DNA of 64,000 nucleotides, from UHGV virus genome UHGV-0298424; one strand, given 5' to 3'. The DNA is from a virus. The notes beneath the pieces were generated by a model, which was not told where the DNA came from, made no database searches, and saw nothing but the letters and a program-made list of their open reading frames with translations. Of this stretch, positions 53-33,894 are shown one piece after another; position 1 is the stretch's first letter, and each line of letters opens with the position of its first letter. Both the position numbers and the translations under genes were made by a program.

Positions 53-883
53 TTATTTCGCCAAGTCTGCTTCTTTTACAAAGATACCGTCGGCGTTCAG
101 GTAACCTTTACGGTCTTTGATTTCATGCCAGGCTAAAGAGAAGCAATGGCGAATATCCAATTTATAATACAAGGCGATACGAGCAAGATGGGCTAAACCC
201 AGGCTAACGAAATCGAAACCATGATCTTTACCTTCCATAAAGGTTGTGGCAAAACTTTCAATAGCGTGAAGGTATTGTTGATGTGGGTATCCAGCGTTGT
301 TTAAATTTTCTTCAACTTCAGCTACATCTTCCACGTCTAAGCGTAGACCAGACTCAATGCAGTCTTCTGCCATTGTAGGAAGGTCAGAATACCTATTCCC
401 TAATTCGATGATATTTACCAGAACCACCAACGCATCACCGATACCGTCCATGATTAGCTCAGGTTTGTTTTTACTGATACCAGCGGCGATTTCACCAAAT
501 TCTTCAAAGAACTTCGTGATTTGTGTTTCTAGTTTACCGTTATCTAGGATGCCGCGTTCTTTGGACCAACCAAGAACATTGGCCACGCACTCCTTCACAG
601 AGAAGAGAGAAACGCGAACGGGCGACATTACCATATTAACGAACACTGCTCTTTTGGTATCGAGATTTAGTTCGCAGTCGTTAACATCCAAAAGAGAATC
701 GCCGCGTGATATTCTACCTTGAACACGAACCTTACCATTGAGAGTATTCATCGCCATACCCCAGATGGTTTCGAATTCGAAATCCCCACCTTCAGCTTTA
801 ATAGCAGGATTAACTTGATACAGCATGTCGTCGTTGATACGAATAACTTTGAATGGAATTTGAATAGTGAAAGTTTCGCCCAT
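53..883 (-). CDS. putative all-alpha NTP pyrophosphohydrolase (MazG / dimeric dUTPase-like)
   Basis: 276-aa ORF; EEFGE and DGIGDALVVLVNI acidic-helix motifs resemble MazG/HisE-type signatures; terminator hairpin at 21-44 just past the stop. Confidence 0.4.
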   Translation of the reverse strand: MGETFTIQIPFKVIRINDDMLYQVNPAIKAEGGDFEFETIWGMAMNTLNGKVRVQGRISRGDSLLDVNDCELNLDTKRAVFVNMVMSPVRVSLFSVKECVANVLGWSKERGILDNGKLETQITKFFEEFGEIAAGISKNKPELIMDGIGDALVVLVNIIELGNRYSDLPTMAEDCIESGLRLDVEDVAEVEENLNNAGYPHQQYLHAIESFATTFMEGKDHGFDFVSLGLAHLARIALYYKLDIRHCFSLAWHEIKDRKGYLNADGIFVKEADLAK

Positions 884-924
884 TTTAAAAACTCCGTTAG
901 ATTAAACAAAAAGAATAAGGATTA

Positions 925-945
925 GGGGTGCTACATAAGCACCCC
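925..945 (-). terminator. intrinsic terminator hairpin
   Basis: GGGGTGCT-ACAT-AAGCACCCC; T-rich tract follows on the minus strand. Confidence 0.45.
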
Positions 946-1139
946 GTGAACTGTTAAATTTTGCAAGCCCCGCCTGAGCAGTTATCGTCTTCCGTGGTTG
1001 GGTCAGCACCCTTATCTACGGTAGCTTCCGGGTCTAAGCCAGGGATTGCAAATTCGTCAGTTTCTTTAACGGTTTCTACTTTAACTTCTTCAGTCATTTT
1101 AGTTCCCAAATTTCTTACAAAGGTGTTAGCAGTTTTGAT

Positions 1140-1322
1140 TTAACGATGGCGAGTGTGAGACAGAAGCAGGCCCATCCGTAATGGAACTGACGCAGTCATT
1201 GCCTTTTTATACTGCACAGTGCGTACTTTCGATTTACCAGGTCCCTTACGTACGCGGTTGTAGCCAATAAAATATAGAGTACCTGTAAAGAATCTGAGGT
1301 TATGAAAATATGGCTTCTTCAT
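1140..1322 (-). CDS. small basic protein, KGP-motif family member 1
   Basis: 60-aa ORF with RKGPGKSKV motif shared with two neighbouring small ORFs. Confidence 0.35.
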   Translation of the reverse strand: MKKPYFHNLRFFTGTLYFIGYNRVRKGPGKSKVRTVQYKKAMTASVPLRMGLLLSHTRHR

Positions 1323-1504
1323 TGTTCCTCCTTCTCGAATGGGTTAGATTCAAGGAACTTGGAATAATCAAATTGAATTACTTGGAAACGTTTACGTCCT
1401 TTACGTGGCCCTTTGCGGCAACGTGTAACAATGGTACGAAATTTTCCCGGTTCGAAATATATCACTGTGGCATTAATAACACAATCTAACGTATCAACCC
1501 CCAT
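1319..1504 (-). CDS. small basic protein, KGP-motif family member 2
   Basis: 61-aa ORF; RKGPRKGRKRFQVIQFDY motif; 4-nt overlap with the downstream ORF. Confidence 0.35.
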   Translation of the reverse strand: MGVDTLDCVINATVIYFEPGKFRTIVTRCRKGPRKGRKRFQVIQFDYSKFLESNPFEKEEQ

Positions 1505-1512
1505 AGGTTGCC

Positions 1513-1902
1513 TTAATCGGTGTGCATAGTGAGATAATTGCTTTCAAAATCGAAGGTTTCGATTAGTTTTTGCAGTTCTTCCAATGCGTGCTGTTTCCAG
1601 TCGTCTCGTGGCGTAGGCTGATCCAATTCTTCAATATATTGTTTAAAGGTGGTAAGTTGTTCTTTACTGATTGCGAATTCACTACTACCGCATACCGTCG
1701 TTATATTGAATTCGGATTTAAGTTTGTTAAACGCATTCCAACAAAACGACAGCCTTTCTGTCCACACCAAGTTACCCTGATCGAATATTTCTCCGAGTAT
1801 GTCGTCAACATGATCGACGTAATATTGGTGCTCCCAAGCCTGTCGCACGGATTCTTTTACAGCGGATTTTGAGTATGAATAAACGTAGATATCGATTGAC
1901 AT
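1513..1902 (-). CDS. hypothetical protein
   Basis: 129-aa ORF co-directional with neighbours. Confidence 0.4.
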   Translation of the reverse strand: MSIDIYVYSYSKSAVKESVRQAWEHQYYVDHVDDILGEIFDQGNLVWTERLSFCWNAFNKLKSEFNITTVCGSSEFAISKEQLTTFKQYIEELDQPTPRDDWKQHALEELQKLIETFDFESNYLTMHTD

Positions 1903-1930
1903 AATGAATTTACTCCCTGAGTTAATTTAA

Positions 1931-2182
1931 TCAGTAAGGTCGGATTATAACCTTTTCGAAGTATTTATAAATAAATACCTTCTTGTTTTGATGTTTTCTT
2001 GGACCTTTCTTGATACGAGAGATCAAAATACGATCGATGTAACATTCTTTTATAACGCGTCTTCTAGGAATGTAACAGGGAACCGCCTCTAATTCTTCCA
2101 TAGAACTAACTGGATTATCTTTAGAATCCAGGTCGATTAAATCTTCTACTGCGATGTTATGGCTAACATGAGTTTTGGTCAT
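1931..2182 (-). CDS. small basic protein, KGP-motif family member 3
   Basis: 83-aa ORF; KKGPRKHQNKKVFIYKYF motif. Confidence 0.35.
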   Translation of the reverse strand: MTKTHVSHNIAVEDLIDLDSKDNPVSSMEELEAVPCYIPRRRVIKECYIDRILISRIKKGPRKHQNKKVFIYKYFEKVIIRPY

Positions 2183-2241
2183 TTCAATGTTCCCTTTTTA
2201 GTTAGGTAGTGGTTCAGATATAGATTGCATGTGAAACAACT

Positions 2242-2538
2242 TTACTGAAAATCACGTTTAGCCTTGCTAATGATTTGAGATATTCGGCTTGGCGTCACTC
2301 CGTGTATTTCGGCCAATTTCTTGTTACTTAGGCCACCCAATTTACCAACAAGAATATTCAATACACGTAAGTCTTTTAACGTTGCCGAAATCTTCTCTAA
2401 GATTTCGATATCAGCTTGATCAAACTTACCTTTAGTCTGTAATGCTATCCCAGCACGCTCAGTAACAGTTTTTAGCTCAGCTAATCGACTAATGCCGAAA
2501 GAAGTTAACTCCACGTACGATTTCTCATTAATCATCAT
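2242..2538 (-). CDS. helix-turn-helix protein (sigma-70 region 4-like)
   Basis: 98-aa ORF; C-terminal LSNKKLAEIHGVTPSRISQIISKA resembles region 4.2 / LuxR-type HTH. Confidence 0.4.
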   Translation of the reverse strand: MMINEKSYVELTSFGISRLAELKTVTERAGIALQTKGKFDQADIEILEKISATLKDLRVLNILVGKLGGLSNKKLAEIHGVTPSRISQIISKAKRDFQ

Positions 2539-2545
2539 GTACCCC

Positions 2546-3586
2546 TTAGACAGCTATGGGAGCTTTAATTGTGTCGTGCGATTGATAACCAACTAATTCG
2601 AAGTCTTCGTATTTGTAATCGAAGATGGAATCAGGTTTACGTTTGATAACCAGTTTAGGTAGCGGGTAAGGTTCGCGAGTAAGTTGTAGTTTTGCCTGCT
2701 CCAGATGGTTAGAGTAAAGATGAACGTCTACACCACTATAAACCAACTCGTCTGGAACCATGTTCAACTGCTGTGCAATCATGTGAGTTAACAACGCGTA
2801 CGAAGCGACGTTAAATGGCGCGCCAAGTAGGTAATCGTTGCTCCGCATCATGTAAAAACATGAAAGTTTACGGCGTGGAATACCTTCACGATCTAAAGTT
2901 TCATGAAGTCGCTCTTCATCATCAATATCTTCGTGATTAATAAGCGGTGCGCTCGCAAATTTTTCCGGCTCGTTTACTTCGTACCAATCCAGTCGCTCAA
3001 GCAGTGTCATTTCTGTAGTGTAGAATTGGAAATAGTTGTGGCATGGGTTAAGTGCCATATCGTCCAGGTCACCTACATTCCAGGCACTAACAATAATACG
3101 ACGGGAGTCAGGGTCTTCACGAAGTTGCTGGATAACTTTGCTGATCTGGTCGTGAGATTTGCGATAAATAACGATACTTTCTTCAGGATCGTCCTTTGCT
3201 ATAGTCCCAACGTAGCGATATCCTCGTTTTCTCAACACGTCTTTACTACGCTCGTCCCAAAGATAAACCATCTTGGTATCCATCCATTCCCGCCACTGGT
3301 GTCCGTAGACAGGGCCTAATTCCCCTTCTTCATTCGCCCATGAATCCCAAATTTTTACCCCGTTCTCTTGCAGGTACTTCACGTTAGTGTCGCCATTTAA
3401 GAACCACAGCAGTTCATGAATGATACTTTTCAGGTGAACCTTTTTCGTAGTAACTAATGGGAAACCTTCTTTTAGGTCGAAACGTAGTTGGCGACCAAAT
3501 ACAGAAAGTGTCCCTACGCCTGTACGGTCTTTCTTGACAACACCGTTATCTAGAATGTCTTGCATTAACGCTAAATACTGTTTCAT
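2546..3586 (-). CDS. thyA: thymidylate synthase (ThyA family, with two in-frame insertions)
   Basis: 346 aa; near-collinear with E. coli ThyA from memory ([57 protein letters not shown]-terminal KAPIAV); about 30-aa and 40-aa insertions. Confidence 0.8.
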
Positions 3587-12077: not shown

Positions 12078-13574
12078 TTATTTCTTTTTCGTCAGGAACT
12101 TCGGTTCTAGTCCATCGACAGCCATACCCAGAATAGTACGTGCAGTCAGTGTACGTTTACCACCTTTGGTTTCCTGGTCTTTAAACATCCAGTATTCTAC
12201 CGTGTTATCCAGAATTTCATTCCAGTCCCACTTCTCGTCAATCAGTTTGTAAATCTCACCCATGCTGAGATGATACTTCATTTCAAGACGGTGGTAGTTG
12301 TTTTGCATATACGCGATTGCCGCCGTGATTTCTAAAGCGCGACGTAAGCGTGCGTTATCAGAAATCATATCACGGATTGTCGTACGTTGGAATTTCACAC
12401 CAGGTAAAATGTCCAGTTCTTTGATAGAACCGCCACTACCGCTTGACGTAAAACCAAAGTCTGACTTCTTCAGCGTGTCACTTAAATAGTGCCACAGGCT
12501 CAGGTGATATAACAGACCCATTTCCTGAGAGAAGATCATCTGGAATTTCACACCGGTGTGACCACCCTTCGCACGATACTGAGTAAAGGTGATAATCTTC
12601 AAGTCGTTTACCGAAGCATTCATCGCTTTAGAACGTGACGTCGGATAAAGTTCTTCGTTAACACCGGTCTGTGCGTTATAGCTCTGGTCTTTCTTCAACT
12701 CCCCTGATTTCGTCGCGACGATAAAAGAGTTTGTTAAAAAGCTAAGCTGACGGCGAGGAATACCTGCGAATTTTAAATCGTCGTTGGCATCGTCAAGAAT
12801 TTTCGCATTTGCTTTTTGTGCCTGACGACCACCTGCCATCGCTTTCCCAGAGTCATCGGCCATCTGTGCCACGAAACCCATATAGAAACCACCGCGTGCA
12901 AACGCAGACGGCCAGCGGCTCATCATGTTCGATTTTTGCAGTGCATCGTGGGCGTTCAGGATGTTCTGATCAGAATCACCGATATCTGTTTTTGCGTGTT
13001 TGTCTTCCAGCGAACTGGAATGCCACTCTGACAAAGAGTCGATAGAATAAAGCCAGGGGTCCAGGATTTCTTTTAACTTCCGACGAACCGGATCGGGGAA
13101 CGGCGTTACACGGGTTTTACCAGACATATACTGCTTGAAGCGTTTTTCAACTTCGTCACGAATATAATCACTGTAATACTGTTCCCCAGGCATTACATCA
13201 GAACCGACCAGGTTATAACGACCTTCGTGGATGAGTTCCAATACGGACGTTCCGTCGTCGATACCGTTGGCGTTCATGGCAGAGATGTACCCAGTTTCTA
13301 AACGATCGAGGGCGGCGGACACTTCTGTATCGTACTTAGAACCCCACTCTGCTTTATAACGTTGCAGGATTTGGAAGATACAGAAATCTAACAAAGTGGA
13401 TTTAAAGGTGTTACCGCGACCTGCGAAACCCATGATGTGGGCAAAACCACCGTTAAGGTAGTACAAACCATCTTCACCTTTTTCGTAGTTACCTAAGGCA
13501 TGATCCATGATGGTGTAAACGTTAAAACGTGGACGAATTACTTCACCGATAACTTGCTTAGTTGGGCCTGCCAT
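12078..13574 (-). CDS. hypothetical protein (498 aa)
   Basis: long ORF; GRGNTFKST is only a weak P-loop-like match; function not recognised. Confidence 0.45.
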   Translation of the reverse strand: MAGPTKQVIGEVIRPRFNVYTIMDHALGNYEKGEDGLYYLNGGFAHIMGFAGRGNTFKSTLLDFCIFQILQRYKAEWGSKYDTEVSAALDRLETGYISAMNANGIDDGTSVLELIHEGRYNLVGSDVMPGEQYYSDYIRDEVEKRFKQYMSGKTRVTPFPDPVRRKLKEILDPWLYSIDSLSEWHSSSLEDKHAKTDIGDSDQNILNAHDALQKSNMMSRWPSAFARGGFYMGFVAQMADDSGKAMAGGRQAQKANAKILDDANDDLKFAGIPRRQLSFLTNSFIVATKSGELKKDQSYNAQTGVNEELYPTSRSKAMNASVNDLKIITFTQYRAKGGHTGVKFQMIFSQEMGLLYHLSLWHYLSDTLKKSDFGFTSSGSGGSIKELDILPGVKFQRTTIRDMISDNARLRRALEITAAIAYMQNNYHRLEMKYHLSMGEIYKLIDEKWDWNEILDNTVEYWMFKDQETKGGKRTLTARTILGMAVDGLEPKFLTKKK

Positions 13575-19038: not shown

Positions 19039-19707
19039 CTATCTAAGAATATTTTTAATGAAAAAAGGATCGGCTGTAAACTCCTTCACTTGTGAGTCAT
19101 AACCCGAATGTATTTGATCGCTACTGAGCAAATACTGGTCTAGGTCGTGCGGAAGAATCCAAGAATCACCTTGCTTAAAAATACCATAATCTGCTGTTCC
19201 TGCGGAAAAAATGATTTCCTCTGGAAACGAATAGACACGGCGTAAGGCAAGATCGGATGGCTTTAACACGATTAATCGAACGGGATGTTGACTGACTGCC
19301 TCTTTAATAAACTGTTCACGATTAAACCAAATTATTTTTTCGGGGTAAGTTTCGAATTCAGCCCATGCCCGCGTGATAACTAATTTGGAAATCTTTCTCA
19401 ATTCTTCAGAACGCTCTGCGTAGCCGATGCACTCCTTGCGTACTTCATGATTTTCTATCGATGTTGTGAATTTTTGGAATAGGTGTTGTTGGAAAAAGCC
19501 GTTCTCCGGGATATCACAACCCGCGTTGTATAGTGCAATGATCTCCCACAACAACGAAAGAGAAAACACAAATGCTAACTTTTCCACAACTTCCCAATCT
19601 TCGGAGTAAGGGGCTTTAAAGCCCCAATACTGCCGTGCGTTATACATAAAGTGAGTTTGTAAAAACCGAGGGGCTTTTGACAAGACCTCACTATAAACGA
19701 TCAGCAT
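19039..19707 (-). CDS. hypothetical protein
   Basis: 222-aa ORF. Confidence 0.4.
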   Translation of the reverse strand: MLIVYSEVLSKAPRFLQTHFMYNARQYWGFKAPYSEDWEVVEKLAFVFSLSLLWEIIALYNAGCDIPENGFFQQHLFQKFTTSIENHEVRKECIGYAERSEELRKISKLVITRAWAEFETYPEKIIWFNREQFIKEAVSQHPVRLIVLKPSDLALRRVYSFPEEIIFSAGTADYGIFKQGDSWILPHDLDQYLLSSDQIHSGYDSQVKEFTADPFFIKNILR

Positions 19708-21221
19708 TCAAGCTCCTTATCCGTCAATATTCGTTTGTTTGAATAATAGCCGCACCACAAACCATGATATTTTTCCCCGATATAAACCAACGCGTATTCG
19801 ATATACTGCCGTTCTGGACGACGTACAGCCACGTAAAACCGCCCTTCCGGTTCTTTGATACGGTTGATTTCCGTACGCGTCGGTATGTCGATACCTCGAG
19901 TAAGGATAGCTTTAACCTTGTTTTTACTACCAGGGATCTTGATGGTTACGTCAAAACCTTTATCTACGTTACGATAAATGTCTTTCTTCGGCTTACCTTT
20001 CTCATCGTAAAGTACGTCAGTAATGTCATTCAACACTACTGAGTTTTTCCCTTCCATGGCATCGCGTAACCAACCTGCAAGCTCATCACGAATCGCAATA
20101 CAACGATAAGATAATAGCGCAGGACGAAGAATTCGTGTAATCGAAAGATCTTCAAACATCCACAGGTTTTTGTCTTCACTAAAATGCATCCGATCGATAG
20201 GAATGCCGTTAGCAGCGGCTTCTGCGAACTTCTTGCGCTTTACGAATAAGTTAAAAACAACGGCGATTGGATCAAATTGACGTAAACGGGGCACCCCTTC
20301 CCACGCTTTCGCAGAATGGGTATTTACCAACTCGTATACGTTATCCCACGGTTCTTTGGTAAACATTACGCAGAATTGTGCATCTGGAATGTACTTACCA
20401 ACGAAGACGATATCATCCTTCTGTTTTGCGTGGTTTCCACCGAACATGTAATAAAGTTTATTACCGTTAACTGTAACAGTGGGGTGAGGCTCGTTCACCA
20501 TCGGGTAACAGAACTTCGTAACACAGATATCGGGAAAAGTGGACAAATTGACACCCTCACCAACAACTTCCGGTTGCTGTTCTTCCTCAGGCAGTTCGTC
20601 TTTTGACCAATACGGTGTATAGTCTAACCCCTCCCCTCGGGCAGAGATAATTGAGCCTTTCCGCGCTAACTCGTCTGCGCGTTCGTTTCCATAACGTCCA
20701 GAGTGGCCTTTAATTTTAAGGACACGAACACCTTTCCCTTCTTTCTTTAAGCGCTGTTTAACCACCCACATCCGTTGGATTAATTCCAGATTCGCAATAG
20801 GTGTACCGTCCGCACGACGCCAACCACGTGCTGCCCAACCATCAATCCAGTCGTTATACGTGTTGACAACGTAAGATGCGTCGATATAGATAACGTAGTT
20901 TTTGGCAACGAAGGGGGCGTGTTCGAAGACGGTCAGGAAAGCCACGAGTTCTGCAACGTCGGAGTGTGACATTTTTGGTACAGGAACAACTCCGTCAATA
21001 AACTCCACGGTTTCTGGTAAAGGCGGAAGTTTTTCATCTTTGTTTATCTGGCGGTATCCTGACGTCGTAATCCCCTCGGGAATAGTGGGATGGCGGTAAA
21101 CCCGACCATCCTCAATCGCTTCACGATTAAATAAGTATCCATGAATCCCCGCCCCTGTACCGAGCGGGGAAGTCAAATGGCTACCGTCCGTGTAAATTAC
21201 TGCAACATCAACGTTCTTCAT
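19701..21221 (-). CDS. ribonuclease H domain protein with about 320-aa C-terminal extension
   Basis: N-terminus IYTDGS, ELVA, IDASYV, KGHSG..NERADELAR matches RNase HI catalytic motifs; C-terminal half not recognised. Confidence 0.65.
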   Translation of the reverse strand: MKNVDVAVIYTDGSHLTSPLGTGAGIHGYLFNREAIEDGRVYRHPTIPEGITTSGYRQINKDEKLPPLPETVEFIDGVVPVPKMSHSDVAELVAFLTVFEHAPFVAKNYVIYIDASYVVNTYNDWIDGWAARGWRRADGTPIANLELIQRMWVVKQRLKKEGKGVRVLKIKGHSGRYGNERADELARKGSIISARGEGLDYTPYWSKDELPEEEQQPEVVGEGVNLSTFPDICVTKFCYPMVNEPHPTVTVNGNKLYYMFGGNHAKQKDDIVFVGKYIPDAQFCVMFTKEPWDNVYELVNTHSAKAWEGVPRLRQFDPIAVVFNLFVKRKKFAEAAANGIPIDRMHFSEDKNLWMFEDLSITRILRPALLSYRCIAIRDELAGWLRDAMEGKNSVVLNDITDVLYDEKGKPKKDIYRNVDKGFDVTIKIPGSKNKVKAILTRGIDIPTRTEINRIKEPEGRFYVAVRRPERQYIEYALVYIGEKYHGLWCGYYSNKRILTDKELEC

Positions 21222-30531: not shown

Positions 30532-30717
30532 CTAATTCCGCCATTCGCATTCACGTTGACGCCAAATTGAACCCCATGATAGTTTAATCAGATAAGATGA
30601 AACTACCCATAAAATCATCACCACGCAAAACATGACATAAAGAACCGCTAGAATGGACATGAAACCAAACCCCGCCGCGTCCATAAAACGACGGAACCAA
30701 TCAGTTTGCATAAACAA
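30532..30717 (-). CDS. small membrane protein
   Basis: 61-aa ORF with hydrophobic helix FGFMSILAVLYVMFCVVMILWVV; overlaps the Rad50-like stop. Confidence 0.4.
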   Translation of the reverse strand: MFMQTDWFRRFMDAAGFGFMSILAVLYVMFCVVMILWVVSSYLIKLSWGSIWRQRECEWRN

Positions 30718-33205
30718 TTTTTACTCCTTCGTTATACACCGCAGGCAATGTCACTCCTTCCGGTTCGATGACACAGTACGATGCTTCATTAAGTTTAGAA
30801 TGGACCTCAGCTTCGTGGGAAACTACCAAGAGTTGTGAAAATTCTCCCGAGTTTGCTAACGTTTTAATAAAGCCGACCAGGTTATTACGGTGTTCCTCGT
30901 CCATGCCTTCCGAAGGCTCATCCAAAAGCAACGGAAACTGATGCAACTTCAGCGCTTTGTACGCAGTCAGTCTGAACATCAGATTAAATATAGCACGCTG
31001 TGCCTTAGACCCTTTACGCACGTCAGGAACAGGCTCAGGGTGCGTTTTTAGCTGGACAGGAAAAGTATAATCCAAATCACCGTCAGTGAGATCACAGGGC
31101 ATAACACGCATGGGGTACGTCCAGACCTGTTCGATATAACGCGTCATTAACTCTGTGATTCTAACGATAGCGTTGTAAAAATACTTTCTAAGTACACCCT
31201 TTTCTGGCGAGAAGGCTTGAATCATCAGTTTGTTATTGAACTGTTGGGCTTGTAAGTCTGTAAGTTCGCGCTCCAAACTGTTGAGCTGATTCAATTCATT
31301 TTCCATCTGACGATAACGTTCGCGTGCAGTTGTAAAAGCATCCAGCTTCCCTTCCCGCACTCGTAAGAGTTCCTCGACGACCGTATTTGTCAACGTAACC
31401 TTAACATCACTCTCTAACCGTTCGAATAACGCACTGAAATCATCTACAGCACGTTTAACATTCACTAGATAGGTAAGTGTCGTGTTAGCCAGTTCGTGCT
31501 CTCTACGACGCATTGAGAGCATCTCTGTGGCTTTACCTAACCGTGACTGTTGGAAGGCGATCTTTTGTTGTAAAGCACCATCGACGTTACCAACGGCCGC
31601 CACGGCATCCTGCCATTCTTTTTCCGCTTTCACTAACCGTTGTCGGGTTTCATGGTACTCAATAGCAGAGTACAACTCACCGTCAAACGCTGCGCATAGA
31701 CTCCCGAACTGCTCGCGAGACTCTGTGAAAACGTTACGTTCTTGCAAACGCTTAAAGAACATACTCAATACAGGGTCCTTTGAATACGTCAGTACAATCT
31801 CACGAACCTGCCGCATATAAGTTACATCAGATTCTAATTCAACACGATCGCGTAATAAGGTCTCTAGCTGTGTTTGAAGTTCCGTCCGTTGCTGCTGTTG
31901 ACCACGAATCGATGACTCGAGTTCAGGTAAAGAACGCGTAACACCTGGCCGAAACTTAAACCGACACTGCGGACAATCCACTTCTGCTGTTTCTAAGTAG
32001 TGGTTACGTTCGTGATTTAAATTCTGTAAAACGTTCTCCACTCGCTGGAGTCTATCCCGTAATCCTGCGGTTTTTTGATCCATCACCAGAAGGCGTTCTT
32101 CCAAAACATTGAGTTTCTCGGTTGAATGAATAGCGTCCAGTGTTGTTCCCAACCGTTGTCCCCAAACACGCGCATCGGTAGCCGCACGAAGTTGGTCTAA
32201 ACTGACGTTATCGTTAAATAAACCCGGAAAGAGATGCTCGGTGTCCCATTTGGTAAGTAACTCACGTAAACGTGCCAGTGTATTCTTGAGACCTTCGTGG
32301 TTCCGCATCAGGTAGTCTTGTCGTGTTGACTCATCCATCAATAACGACAAGTCTTTATTCAACATCGATACCTCTGTTTCGGTAGAAACGACGGCTTCGC
32401 GGGCTGTCGCTTCATTTTGTCGGGCGGCCAGTATCTGTTCATCAGTAGGCAACCCACCACGATGTTGTAATATTGCGTCGATGGTTGGACCCAAGCCGTT
32501 TAATAAGGCTTGGATTGTTTCGATCGTGACGGCACGATTTAATCCTGGCAACTGTTCGATTTCTCGGTTCAGTTCACGTAAATCCGATTCCAAACCTTTT
32601 AATCTCGTTGCTAATTGTTGTCGTTCTTCCTCGTTCTCAATAACGCGCGTCCGTAATTCGGCAATCTTACGACTGGTGATTTCAATACCCCCATTTAAGG
32701 CGGTAAGGTTTTTACGCAAACGTTGATAAAACCCTAACGCGTATGTAAGATCAGAGGTACTTAAACGGTAAAACCATTTACGGCGTAATTCGGTTCCCGC
32801 ATCGGTTAACAAAACCTCACCATTTAATAGTTCTTTAATTTCTTTCGTAATACCCGTGATTTCTTCAACACGGGAGTTGTAGACCTTCGCATTACCTTGC
32901 TCGACGATCTTTGCTCCCGTGGTCAGATTTTCAATATCGCAAACCAAAGAGTTACCTTTACGGGCAACTTTGAATCGATACCGTTGATCACCAACTAAAC
33001 AGTAGTTCGTGTAAGAACCGCCGTCTCTGAATTCAGTTTTAGCCGGTGCTAAGGGTAAGAATACAGACAGTAGACTGGTTTTCCCGCAACCGTTCCCACC
33101 CAGGATAATTGTTGTTGGAGACTGGATAGTGAAATCGAAAGTTTCAATTTCATGTAATCCCATCCCCGTAAAACCTTTGAGTATAATGCGTTCAACTTTT
33201 AGCAT
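30701..33205 (-). CDS. Rad50/SbcC-like SMC-family ATPase with zinc hook
   Basis: start at ATG 33205 after GGAGGTGGG; N-terminal Walker A GGNGCGKTS, long coiled coils, central CPQC hook, C-terminal LLLDEPSEGMDEEH signature/Walker B. Confidence 0.65.
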   Translation of the reverse strand: MLKVERIILKGFTGMGLHEIETFDFTIQSPTTIILGGNGCGKTSLLSVFLPLAPAKTEFRDGGSYTNYCLVGDQRYRFKVARKGNSLVCDIENLTTGAKIVEQGNAKVYNSRVEEITGITKEIKELLNGEVLLTDAGTELRRKWFYRLSTSDLTYALGFYQRLRKNLTALNGGIEITSRKIAELRTRVIENEEERQQLATRLKGLESDLRELNREIEQLPGLNRAVTIETIQALLNGLGPTIDAILQHRGGLPTDEQILAARQNEATAREAVVSTETEVSMLNKDLSLLMDESTRQDYLMRNHEGLKNTLARLRELLTKWDTEHLFPGLFNDNVSLDQLRAATDARVWGQRLGTTLDAIHSTEKLNVLEERLLVMDQKTAGLRDRLQRVENVLQNLNHERNHYLETAEVDCPQCRFKFRPGVTRSLPELESSIRGQQQQRTELQTQLETLLRDRVELESDVTYMRQVREIVLTYSKDPVLSMFFKRLQERNVFTESREQFGSLCAAFDGELYSAIEYHETRQRLVKAEKEWQDAVAAVGNVDGALQQKIAFQQSRLGKATEMLSMRRREHELANTTLTYLVNVKRAVDDFSALFERLESDVKVTLTNTVVEELLRVREGKLDAFTTARERYRQMENELNQLNSLERELTDLQAQQFNNKLMIQAFSPEKGVLRKYFYNAIVRITELMTRYIEQVWTYPMRVMPCDLTDGDLDYTFPVQLKTHPEPVPDVRKGSKAQRAIFNLMFRLTAYKALKLHQFPLLLDEPSEGMDEEHRNNLVGFIKTLANSGEFSQLLVVSHEAEVHSKLNEASYCVIEPEGVTLPAVYNEGVKIVYAN

Positions 33206-33258
33206 ACCCACCTCCATAAAGACGGAGTGTGGTGTAAAAAGAAAAAAAAACAGAGAAA

Positions 33259-33280
33259 GGGAGAACCCGAAGGTTCTCCC
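33259..33280 (-). terminator. intrinsic terminator hairpin
   Basis: GGGAGAACC-CGAA-GGTTCTCCC with 9-A run upstream (T-run on minus RNA). Confidence 0.55.
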
Positions 33281-33285
33281 AAACG

Positions 33286-33894
33286 TTATTTGGTATACGG
33301 CTGATAACCCATTGAAGTCCAATAATCGATATTCTTCGCGTTTTCTACCCAAACCTGTCCCGCCTTTGTGGCTAAGACTTCCATTGTCAGTGCACAGATC
33401 AGGTTTGTTACCGGAATGCAATTTCCTGGCGTAACGTCGTCCAGATAAACCGGGTATAAAAACGGTGATTTAATGGATTGGTACGGATAAGAATAGTGAT
33501 TGCCGACCTTCCACCCTTCCTCTACAGGACAGAGATTAAACGTACGTGTTTCTGGAACTGCGTTTTCAGAGATCCAGTTAACAACATCGGCTTTAATTCG
33601 GTCGTGGTCGATATAGTAGAACACGACACGTTGTGGGATACTTGTGGTACCAGCCGGGTCTAAAGCCTCCAACGCCTTGAAAGGCGTCGTTAACAATGTT
33701 GAACTGTTCTCAAGTGCGTAAACCAATTTTTCGTAAGCAGTCGGCGTTTTACGTTTAAAATACTCCCGTAAGCGTGGATACGCCAGGAAGCCCTCTACTT
33801 CCTCTTCCATTAAGTCGATGAATAAAGGCGTATGCGAATAACGCTCTGCATTTTGCATCGCTTCAAGAAAACGAACTAATGTAATTTCGTTCAT
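33286..33894 (-). CDS. hypothetical protein
   Basis: 202-aa ORF upstream of the Rad50-like gene; no metallophosphatase motifs seen. Confidence 0.4.
   Translation of the reverse strand: MNEITLVRFLEAMQNAERYSHTPLFIDLMEEEVEGFLAYPRLREYFKRKTPTAYEKLVYALENSSTLLTTPFKALEALDPAGTTSIPQRVVFYYIDHDRIKADVVNWISENAVPETRTFNLCPVEEGWKVGNHYSYPYQSIKSPFLYPVYLDDVTPGNCIPVTNLICALTMEVLATKAGQVWVENAKNIDYWTSMGYQPYTK

What the first reader, a model, noticed from the sequence alone, without database searches (positions are those of the whole stretch)
1140..2182. Three small basic proteins sharing a (R/K)KGP(G/R)K motif
ORFs at 1140-1322, 1319-1504 and 1931-2182 (60-83 aa) each contain [RK]KGP[GR]K followed by a basic stretch and a hydrophobic/aromatic segment. 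This looks like a family of small nucleic-acid-binding or ribosome-associated proteins.
Basis: seen in the sequence. Interest (0 to 1): 0.4.

Follow-up and report, generated by a model that had tools for sequence, protein, structure and literature searches.

The report
Small basic hairpin proteins, jumbo phage
Three neighbouring small genes of a giant bacteriophage encode a real but uncharacterised family of very basic mini-proteins, built around a beta-hairpin tipped by the conserved motif R-x-[KR][KR]-G-P-x-K; they probably bind nucleic acid, but nothing here shows what they do.

Summary
[RK]KGP[GR]K occurs three times in the six-frame translation of the 64 kb window, only in the minus-strand ORFs 1140-1322, 1319-1504 and 1931-2182 (0.03 expected). 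These look like real genes. The motif uses different codons in each copy, dN/dS against orthologues is 0.10-0.51, ORF1 has an AAGGAGGA ribosome-binding site, and ORF2 and ORF1 overlap by ATGA.

The window is a chimallivirus-like jumbo phage, collinear with SPN3US. E. coli phage Goslar carries a matching trio (gp139, gp138, gp137) in the same place, downstream of thyA. A profile built only from Goslar-type proteins ranks the three window ORFs top of 1368 segments. ORF3~gp137 and ORF2~gp139 are well supported; ORF1 is linked mainly by the motif.

The family is tiny (about 105 proteins, all on 220-250 kb phage contigs). It has no hit in Pfam, PHROGs, NCBIfam, PADLOC or PDB. AlphaFold predicts a long beta-hairpin with the motif at its tip.

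Function is inferred only. Nucleic-acid binding is most likely (about 0.45). No ribosomal-protein or PhiKZ014 relationship was found.

Side finding: the adjacent 51-aa ORF ends like the C-terminal redox tail of E. coli NrdA (DDxCxxGACKI). SPN3US, which conserves this peptide, has no NrdA body.

The parts
1140..1322 (-). ORF1, 60 aa, pI 11.7, the most divergent family member. The core is YFIGYNRVRKGPGKSKVRTVQY. The C-terminal tail is poorly conserved.
   Evidence: One search gives the ORF. One search shows the AAGGAGGA ribosome-binding site 5 nt upstream of the ATG and the ATGA overlap with ORF2. One search gives dN/dS 0.15-0.21 against L002 and L004. One search shows orthologues P0053, P0054 and P0058 at 93-97% identity.
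1233..1250 (-). RKGPGK motif of ORF1
1319..1504 (-). ORF2, 61 aa, pI 9.4. It is the counterpart of Goslar gp139. The predicted fold is a three-stranded antiparallel sheet with GPRKGR in the loop between strands 2 and 3.
   Evidence: AF2: strands E9-18, E21-31, E38-46; mean pLDDT 64. One search gives hhalign 88% probability to the gp139 group. One search gives dN/dS 0.10-0.44.
1400..1417 (-). RKGPRK motif of ORF2
1931..2182 (-). ORF3, 83 aa, pI 9.5. It is the orthologue of Goslar gp137. It has a disordered acidic N-terminal extension (residues 1-29) followed by a long beta-hairpin (residues 45-57 and 66-78) with KKGPRKHQ at the tip.
   Evidence: tblastn hit to Goslar. One search gives E 8e-9 for the gp137-only HMM. 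One search gives hhalign 95% probability. One search gives AF2 pLDDT 85-89 over residues 50-70.
1994..2011 (-). KKGPRK motif of ORF3
1513..1902 (-). 129-aa acidic protein of unknown function. It lies between ORF3 and ORF2 in the same transcription direction and ends 8 nt before the ORF2 start. It is context and is not shown to belong to the family.
   Evidence: Searches show no family hit. One search shows it present in L006; one search shows it absent from L002.
954..1109 (-). 51-aa ORF ending DDNCSGGACKI, which mimics the NrdA C-terminal tail. It lies immediately downstream of ORF1 and is fused in frame to the ORF1 orthologue in some relatives.
   Evidence: phrog_14561. (120-aa fusions P0089, P0092, P0098; L004 3171-3533). 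(E. coli NrdA C-terminus)..
926..946 (-). GC-rich hairpin (GGGGTGCTTATGTAGCACCCC) followed by a T-rich run. It is the probable terminator closing the operon of the 129-aa gene, ORF2, ORF1 and the 51-aa gene.
   Evidence: Sequence. It was read by eye; the simple terminator scan did not list it.

Best explanation
The three ORFs are genuine, translated genes. They encode a lineage-specific paralogous family of 48-83 aa, strongly basic mini-proteins, called here the KGP-hairpin family.

Their common core is a roughly 30-residue beta-hairpin. Its tip carries the near-invariant signature R-x-[KR]-[KR]-G-[P/C]-x-K-[G/S]-[RK]. Different N- or C-terminal tails are attached to this core.

The genes sit in a variable cassette between thyA and a MazG-like gene of a chimallivirus-type jumbo phage. 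They are expressed as part of a tightly packed, translationally coupled operon.

The most likely mechanism, which is inferred and not shown, is that the positively charged hairpin tip inserts into a groove of RNA or DNA. This would resemble the beta-arms of HU/IHF, the extended hairpins of ribosomal proteins, or the BIV Tat arginine-rich hairpin. The hydrophobic face of the hairpin would pack against a third strand or a partner subunit. On this reading they act as small accessory nucleic-acid-binding factors during infection.

Shown: gene reality, conservation, the motif and the predicted hairpin. Inferred: nucleic-acid binding, the target, and oligomerisation or pairing of adjacent paralogues.
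For: Reality of the genes:
- The motif occurs 3 times against 0.03 expected, and only in these ORFs.
- The motif codons differ between copies and there is no DNA repeat.
- dN/dS is 0.10-0.51 against orthologues at 85-86% nucleotide identity.
- ORF1 has a canonical AAGGAGGA ribosome-binding site and overlaps ORF2 by ATGA. All ORFs lie on the same strand as their neighbours with gaps of 8-60 nt.

Family:
- Goslar has three motif-bearing small genes (gp139 NKKGPRKGK, gp138 HKKGCNKGK, gp137 VKRGPGKGR) in the syntenic position after thyA.
- A Goslar-only HMM ranks the three window ORFs 1-3 of 1368 segments, with E 2.4e-6, 0.01 and 0.017.
- hhalign gives ORF3~gp137 95%, ORF2~gp139 88% and ORF3~gp139 71%.
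- 105 homologues were found, all on 220-250 kb contigs.
- G at position +1 and K at +4 are invariant, and R/K at -3 is near-invariant, across 88 unique cores.

Structure and charge:
- AF2 predicts a hairpin with the motif at the tip, with pLDDT 85-89 in the ORF3 core.
- pI is 9.4-11.7.
- The tails attached to the common hairpin vary: an acidic N-terminal extension in ORF3, a probable (unmodelled) C-terminal helix in gp138, and the RNR-tail peptide in fused ORF1 orthologues.
Against: - There is no experimental or homology evidence for nucleic-acid binding.
- No hit was found in Pfam, PHROGs, NCBIfam, PADLOC or PDB sequences.
- AF2 confidence is only moderate overall (mean pLDDT 59-64).
- A two- or three-stranded sheet of this size is unlikely to be stable as a monomer.
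- ORF1's homology to the other two rests on 14-20 aligned columns.
- In nucleus-forming phages the phage DNA is sequestered, so a DNA target would need import or would have to be host DNA.
- High pI alone is a weak predictor of nucleic-acid binding.
Confidence: 0.45

Rival explanations
1. The hairpin is a protein-protein docking module, for example by beta-strand augmentation. It would work within the phage's nucleotide-metabolism machinery, tethering variable tails such as the NrdA-tail mimic to a partner such as host RNR, thioredoxin/glutaredoxin, ThyA or MazG.
For: - The genes are embedded between thyA and a MazG-like gene, next to the NrdA-tail mimic.
- In several relatives the ORF1 orthologue is fused in frame to that peptide, giving 120-121 aa proteins: P0089, P0092, P0098 and P0102-P0104.
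- A common hairpin carries different tails.
Against: - The fusion arises from the presence or absence of a single stop codon or frameshift in a poorly conserved linker. Split, frameshifted and fused states coexist among close relatives, so it may be incidental.
- Goslar has the family but no tail mimic was detected there.
- The extreme basicity of the tip is more typical of nucleic-acid contacts.
Confidence: 0.2
2. They are specifically ribosome-associated factors that modulate host translation early in infection.
For: - They are small, very basic proteins with an extended hairpin, like many ribosomal-protein extensions.
- There is a precedent for a jumbo-phage ribosome binder, PhiKZ014 (PMC10914614).
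Against: - No similarity to any ribosomal-protein model was found.
- They are unrelated in size and architecture to PhiKZ014 and give no PHROG hit.
- No expression-timing data exist.
Confidence: 0.15
3. They are host-takeover or anti-defence effectors acting by some other mechanism. Small ORFs in variable phage regions often have such roles.
For: - The cassette between thyA and the tail mimic is hypervariable between related phages: CR5, SPN3US, L002 and L006 all differ.
- The family has a patchy distribution across two lineages.
Against: - No match was found to PADLOC models. PADLOC covers defence systems, not anti-defence proteins, so this is weak evidence.
- Nothing suggests a specific target.
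Confidence: 0.15
4. They are spurious ORFs, and the motif reflects a conserved non-coding DNA or RNA element or chance.
For: - The ORFs are very short.
- ORF1's tail and ORF3's N-terminus are poorly conserved.
Against: - The motif codons differ at third positions and no DNA repeat is present.
- dN/dS is below 1.
- ORF1 has a strong ribosome-binding site and is translationally coupled to ORF2.
- Conservation with Goslar is at protein level without any DNA similarity.
Confidence: 0.05

Closest known systems
Goslar gp137, gp138 and gp139 (QBO63930, QBO63931, QBO63932; annotated 'hypothetical protein')
   Same: They belong to the same family. They share the motif, the size (48-67 aa) and the position downstream of thyA, and adjacent genes overlap. 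ORF3~gp137 at hhalign 95% and ORF2~gp139 at 88%.
   Different: The gene order differs: ORF3 comes first in the window, while gp137 comes last in Goslar. gp138 has Cys in place of Pro and what looks, from its sequence, like a C-terminal helix. None of these proteins has been characterised.
HU/IHF beta-ribbon arms (Pfam PF00216)
   Same: Both have a basic beta-hairpin with a proline near the tip. The pattern R-x-[KR][KR]-G-P-x-K-G-[RK] resembles HU's R-T-G-R-N-P-Q-T-G-K. The HU sequence is recalled from memory and was not retrieved here. In HU/IHF the proline is the DNA-kinking element.
   Different: No Pfam hit was found. The family has no alpha-helical dimerisation body and is half the size. 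The resemblance spans about 10 residues and is not statistically testable. It is an analogy, not homology.
Arginine-rich beta-hairpin RNA-binding peptides (BIV Tat-TAR type) and extended hairpins of ribosomal proteins
   Same: Both are short Gly/Arg/Lys-rich hairpins that could fit an RNA major groove.
   Different: No sequence model exists to test this. The family is Lys-rich rather than Arg-rich and is embedded in a small sheet.
AT-hook (PF02178)
   Same: Both are short basic Gly-Pro-containing motifs.
   Different: The AT-hook core is R-G-R-P in an extended, non-hairpin conformation. Here the order is K-G-P-[GR]-K, with no GRP, at a hairpin tip. No Pfam hit was found.
PhiKZ014 (jumbo-phage 50S / 5S rRNA binder, PHROG 16056)
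   Same: It is a jumbo-phage-encoded basic protein that targets the host translation machinery.
   Different: PhiKZ014 is a multi-domain protein of more than 266 residues with helical clamps (PMC10914614). No PHROG hit was found for the KGP proteins.

Membership tests
KGP-hairpin family (defined here; Goslar gp137-139 and relatives) | The signature R-x-[KR]-[KR]-G-[P/C]-x-K-[G/S]-[RK], flanked by beta-strand-like hydrophobic/aromatic runs, in a protein of 48-83 aa | tested here: met
   All three ORFs carry it. The Goslar-only HMM ranks them 1-3 of 1368 segments.
KGP-hairpin family (defined here; Goslar gp137-139 and relatives) | Position in the variable cassette downstream of thyA in a chimallivirus-type jumbo phage, with tandem and overlapping genes | tested here: met
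KGP-hairpin family (defined here; Goslar gp137-139 and relatives) | Statistically supported homology of every member to the others | tested here: inconclusive
   ORF3~gp137 at 95%, ORF2~gp139 at 88% and ORF2~ORF3 at 47%. ORF1 reaches only 8-28% to any other group, and gp138 reaches at most 16%.
HU/IHF (PF00216 Bac_DNA_binding) | Match to the family profile, meaning an alpha-helical dimer body plus beta-arms | tested here: not met
   No Pfam hit at E <= 1. AF2 predicts only strands.
AT-hook (PF02178) | G-R-P core flanked by basic residues | tested here: not met
   The sequences show K-G-P-[GR]-K with no GRP. No Pfam hit.
KOW motif / ribosomal protein L24 (PF00467) and other ribosomal proteins | Match to Pfam or NCBIfam ribosomal-protein or KOW models | tested here: not met
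   No hit at E <= 1 in Pfam for the three ORFs or in NCBIfam for 23 family members.
PhiKZ014-like ribosome-targeting factor (PHROG 16056) | Homology to PHROG 16056; multi-domain protein with an N-terminal helix and a central domain that clamp 5S rRNA | tested here: not met
   No PHROG hit. The architecture is described in PMC10914614.
Nucleic-acid-binding protein (functional class) | Direct binding to DNA or RNA | not testable with these tools
   Only indirect evidence exists: pI 9.4-11.7 and a basic hairpin tip.
Known anti-phage defence components (PADLOC) | Match to a PADLOC model | tested here: not met
   0 of 23 members match.

The most novel reading that the evidence does not exclude
The KGP hairpin is a previously unrecognised minimal 'arm-only' binding module of enterobacterial nucleus-forming phages. 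It would target a host macromolecule (ribosome, RNA or the undegraded host nucleoid) or the host RNR/thioredoxin system. Different effector tails would be grafted onto it, including a free-standing mimic of the NrdA C-terminal redox tail. That would make the cassette a new kind of host-takeover toolkit for translation or dNTP supply.
Probability: 0.15. Interest if true: 0.6.

Novelty: new variant of a known kind. Interest (0 to 1): 0.3.

Why it matters
Nucleus-forming jumbo phages carry hundreds of small orphan genes, and very few have an assigned function. This work defines one such family, with a clear signature, a predicted fold, orthology to genes in the tractable E. coli phage Goslar (gp137-139), and a testable binding hypothesis.

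On its own it is a modest result: a narrowly distributed orphan family. Its value rises if the hairpin proves to be a targeting module. It rises further if the occasional fusion to the neighbouring NrdA-tail mimic reflects a real link to host ribonucleotide reduction. That link would be a new way for a phage lacking its own RNR to manipulate dNTP supply.

Tried and rejected
- **Pfam, PHROGs, NCBIfam and PADLOC scans** of the three ORFs or of 23 family members gave nothing meaningful.
- **Profile search of PDB sequences** gave only a chance 15-residue match to PTPRZ, E 0.39.
- **tblastn of ORF1 and ORF2 against 50,697 phage genomes** gave no true hit. Only ORF3 reached Goslar, at E 0.3, and that hit became convincing only through synteny and profiles.
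- **Exhaustive HMM search of 1.84 billion cluster representatives** returned only 11 hits. One of them (P0109, a repeat protein) is spurious. There were no cellular relatives.
- **The search for related loci with the alignment** failed because no conserved 7-10 column block exists.
- **A degenerate DNA pattern for RKGPRKGRK in IMG/VR** gave 6 loci, of which only one (L009) is a true member.
- **CR5 and SPN3US syntenic regions** contain no KGP ORFs.
- **DNA-level repeats** linking the three ORFs are absent.
- **Literature**: no mention of Goslar gp137-139 was found, including in the two held supplementary files of the 2026 Goslar virion structure and proteomics preprint. A full-text search for the peptide string 'GACKI' returned only noise.
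- **Rejected as memberships**: AT-hook, KOW/L24, HU/IHF and PhiKZ014-like. See the membership table.

Full report
**1. The observation**

A six-frame scan of the whole 64 kb window finds [RK]KGP[GR]K three times. All three matches lie in these ORFs, at 1233-1250, 1400-1417 and 1994-2011. 200 shuffles gave a mean of 0.03 matches and never more than one.

The proteins have pI 11.7, 9.4 and 9.5.

**2. Are these genes?**

- The motif is encoded by different codons in each copy (Gly is GGA, GGG and GGT; Pro is CCT, CCA and CCA). No DNA repeat connects the ORFs. The conservation therefore acts on the protein.
- ORF1 is preceded by AAGGAGGA 5 nt upstream of its ATG. That ATG overlaps the ORF2 stop codon (ATGA).
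- ORF2 starts 8 nt after the stop of a 129-aa gene. All of these genes lie on the same strand as thyA (2546-3586) and a MazG-like gene (53-883).
- Orthologues were fetched from metagenomic and NCBI contigs (L002, L004, L006). They are 85-86% identical in DNA and give dN/dS of 0.10-0.51 over the cores.

I put the probability that these are real genes at about 0.9.

**3. What genome is this?**

A 457-aa virion protein from the window is 84% identical to Erwinia phage phiEaH2. It is 78% identical to SPN3US-like Salmonella phages and 26-29% identical to PhiKZ-like phages. Judging from the SPN3US annotation tables, gene order in the window appears collinear, in reverse orientation, with SPN3US 150-200 kb; no alignment was run.

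At nucleotide level, only window 903-1046 matches any deposited phage. The window is therefore from an undeposited jumbo phage related to the SPN3US/phiEaH2 group. Goslarvirus, a key relative below, is classified in Chimalliviridae. Relatives of the window occur on 222-228 kb contigs, including Salmonella enterica assemblies.

**4. The family**

tblastn of ORF3 gave a marginal hit (E 0.3) to E. coli phage Goslar. That hit lies in the syntenic position downstream of thyA. There, Goslar has three consecutive small genes that all carry the motif:

| Goslar gene | Length | Motif |
|---|---|---|
| gp139 | 48 aa | NKKGPRKGK |
| gp138 | 67 aa | HKKGCNKGK |
| gp137 | 65 aa | VKRGPGKGR |

A profile search of 5.8 billion proteins returned 105 proteins, all 41-121 aa, on contigs of up to 220-250 kb and without Pfam domains. 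An exhaustive HMMER search of 1.84 billion cluster representatives found only 11 hits, one of them spurious. The family is real but very narrow.

As a control not built from the window, an HMM made only from Goslar-type proteins ranks the three window ORFs first, second and third among 1368 six-frame segments. The E-values are 2.4e-6, 0.01 and 0.017.

Profile-profile comparison gives:

| Pair | hhalign probability |
|---|---|
| ORF3 ~ gp137 | 95% |
| ORF2 ~ gp139 | 88% |
| ORF3 ~ gp139 | 71% |
| ORF2 ~ ORF3 | 47% |
| ORF1 ~ any other group | 8-28% |

ORF1's membership therefore rests on the motif, its size, its position and its translational coupling to ORF2. This mirrors the overlapping gp139/gp138 pair in Goslar.

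Across 88 unique cores, G(+1) and K(+4) are invariant and R/K(-3) is nearly so. The signature is R-x-[KR]-[KR]-G-[P/C]-x-K-[G/S]-[RK].

The family is absent from the syntenic cassettes of SPN3US and CR5. ORF3 is missing from L002-L006. The cassette between thyA and MazG is hypervariable.

**5. Structure**

AlphaFold2 with the family alignment predicts the following:

- **ORF2:** a three-stranded antiparallel meander (residues 9-18, 21-31, 38-46), with GPRKGR in the last loop. Mean pLDDT is 64.
- **ORF3:** a disordered N-terminus and a long hairpin (residues 45-57, 66-78), with KKGPRKHQ at the tip. pLDDT is 85-89 over the core.

**6. Mechanism (inference)**

The conserved part is the tip of a basic hairpin. 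The strands are amphipathic, and the appended tails differ:

- ORF3 has an acidic N-terminal extension.
- gp138 has a C-terminal segment that, read by eye from its sequence, may be helical.
- ORF1 orthologues sometimes carry the NrdA-tail peptide.

This is the pattern of a binding module with variable effector or regulatory tails. The charge and shape favour insertion into a nucleic-acid groove. This is functionally analogous to HU/IHF arms, whose R-x-G-R-N-P-x-T-G tip (recalled from memory) has a similar spacing of R, P and G. It is also analogous to ribosomal-protein hairpins and to the BIV Tat hairpin.

I give nucleic-acid binding about 0.45. The target (RNA, ribosome or DNA) is unresolved. 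The overlapping gene pairs suggest stoichiometric co-expression and perhaps hetero-oligomers.

No ribosomal-protein model matches. PhiKZ014, the known jumbo-phage ribosome binder, is a large multi-domain protein in PHROG 16056 (PMC10914614).

A serious rival, at about 0.2, is a protein-docking role in nucleotide metabolism. It is prompted by the gene neighbourhood and by the in-frame fusions of ORF1 orthologues to the downstream peptide. However, split, frameshifted and fused states differ by a single stop codon or indel in a poorly conserved linker. In the window, TAA at 1140-1142 stands where relatives have Lys. The fusion may therefore be incidental.

**7. Side finding**

The 51-aa ORF at 954-1109 ends ...TTEDDNCSGGACKI*. 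E. coli NrdA ends ...SIQDDGCESGACKI*. That tail carries the Cys754/Cys759 pair, which re-reduces the RNR active site (established knowledge, recalled from memory).

The peptide is conserved as a stand-alone ORF in 43 jumbo-phage records, including SPN3US_0234 and CR5_113. tblastn of full-length NrdA against the complete SPN3US genome and against the window finds only this tail and no NrdA body. No RNR is annotated in SPN3US.

A phage without its own class Ia RNR therefore carries a mimic of the host enzyme's redox tail, placed between thyA and MazG. I found no description of this, although I ran only one failed string search on it. It may be more interesting than the assigned finding.

**8. 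Verdict**

The family is real, conserved and uncharacterised. It is not a member of any known family that I could test. The function is inferred only.

On its own it is an ordinary kind of discovery, a lineage-specific orphan paralogue family in a jumbo phage. I score interest at 0.3. The upside is modest unless the hairpin proves to be a targeting module.

Noticed in passing
window 954-1109 (-): This 51-aa ORF ends DDNCSGGACKI*. That is almost identical to the extreme C-terminus of E. coli class Ia RNR alpha, NrdA (DDGCESGACKI*), whose Cys pair is the redox shuttle. It is conserved as a stand-alone small ORF in 43 jumbo-phage records (SPN3US_0234, CR5_113, Erwinia phages; phrog_14561, 38753 and 24014). 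tblastn of full-length NrdA against the whole SPN3US genome and the window finds only this tail and no NrdA body. It is a possible phage mimic or decoy of the host RNR tail.
   Followed up: partly
window 1140-1142 (-); L004 3171-3533; L002 3171-3535: The ORF1 stop codon TAA is in frame with the downstream 51-aa ORF and replaces a Lys codon of relatives. In some relatives ORF1 and the NrdA-tail peptide form one 120-121 aa protein (P0089, P0092, P0098, P0102-P0104). In others a frameshift gives a 74-aa ORF1 that overlaps the peptide gene by ATGA. Three allelic states coexist in one lineage.
   Followed up: partly
window 903-1046: This is the only part of window 900-2600 with nucleotide-level similarity (71-80%) to deposited phages (SPAsTU, Erwinia Caitlin and Machina, pSal-SNUABM-04). 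It covers the 3' end of the tail-mimic ORF and a GC-rich hairpin (926-946) with a T-rich run, a probable terminator. The simple terminator scan did not list the hairpin.
   Followed up: no
window 1110-2545; compare L007 1169-3359, L008 1348-3416, L002 2506-3391, L006 1238-2868: The stretch between thyA and the tail-mimic/MazG genes is a hypervariable cassette. CR5, SPN3US, Goslar and the window's own close relatives each carry different sets of small ORFs there. For example, a 148-aa gene replaces ORF3 in L002 and L006.
   Followed up: partly
window 2242-2538 (-): This 98-aa protein has weak helix-turn-helix or sigma-70 region 4-like matches at its C-terminus (HTH_3 E 9e-4; phrog_1373 transcriptional regulator E 2e-3). 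It sits between thyA and ORF3 and may be a small regulator.
   Followed up: no
window 53-883 (-), 2546-3586 (-), 12078-13574 (-), 19701-21221 (-), 30701-33421 (-): Context genes are a MazG-like pyrophosphohydrolase (phrog_7855, E 3e-68), thymidylate synthase (named by synteny and sequence resemblance to the annotated Goslar/CR5/SPN3US genes and the Pfam tags; not itself scanned), a UvsX-like recombinase, an RNase H-domain nuclease and an SbcC-like ATPase. Judging from the SPN3US annotation tables, the window appears collinear, in reverse, with SPN3US 150-200 kb; no alignment was run.
   Followed up: partly
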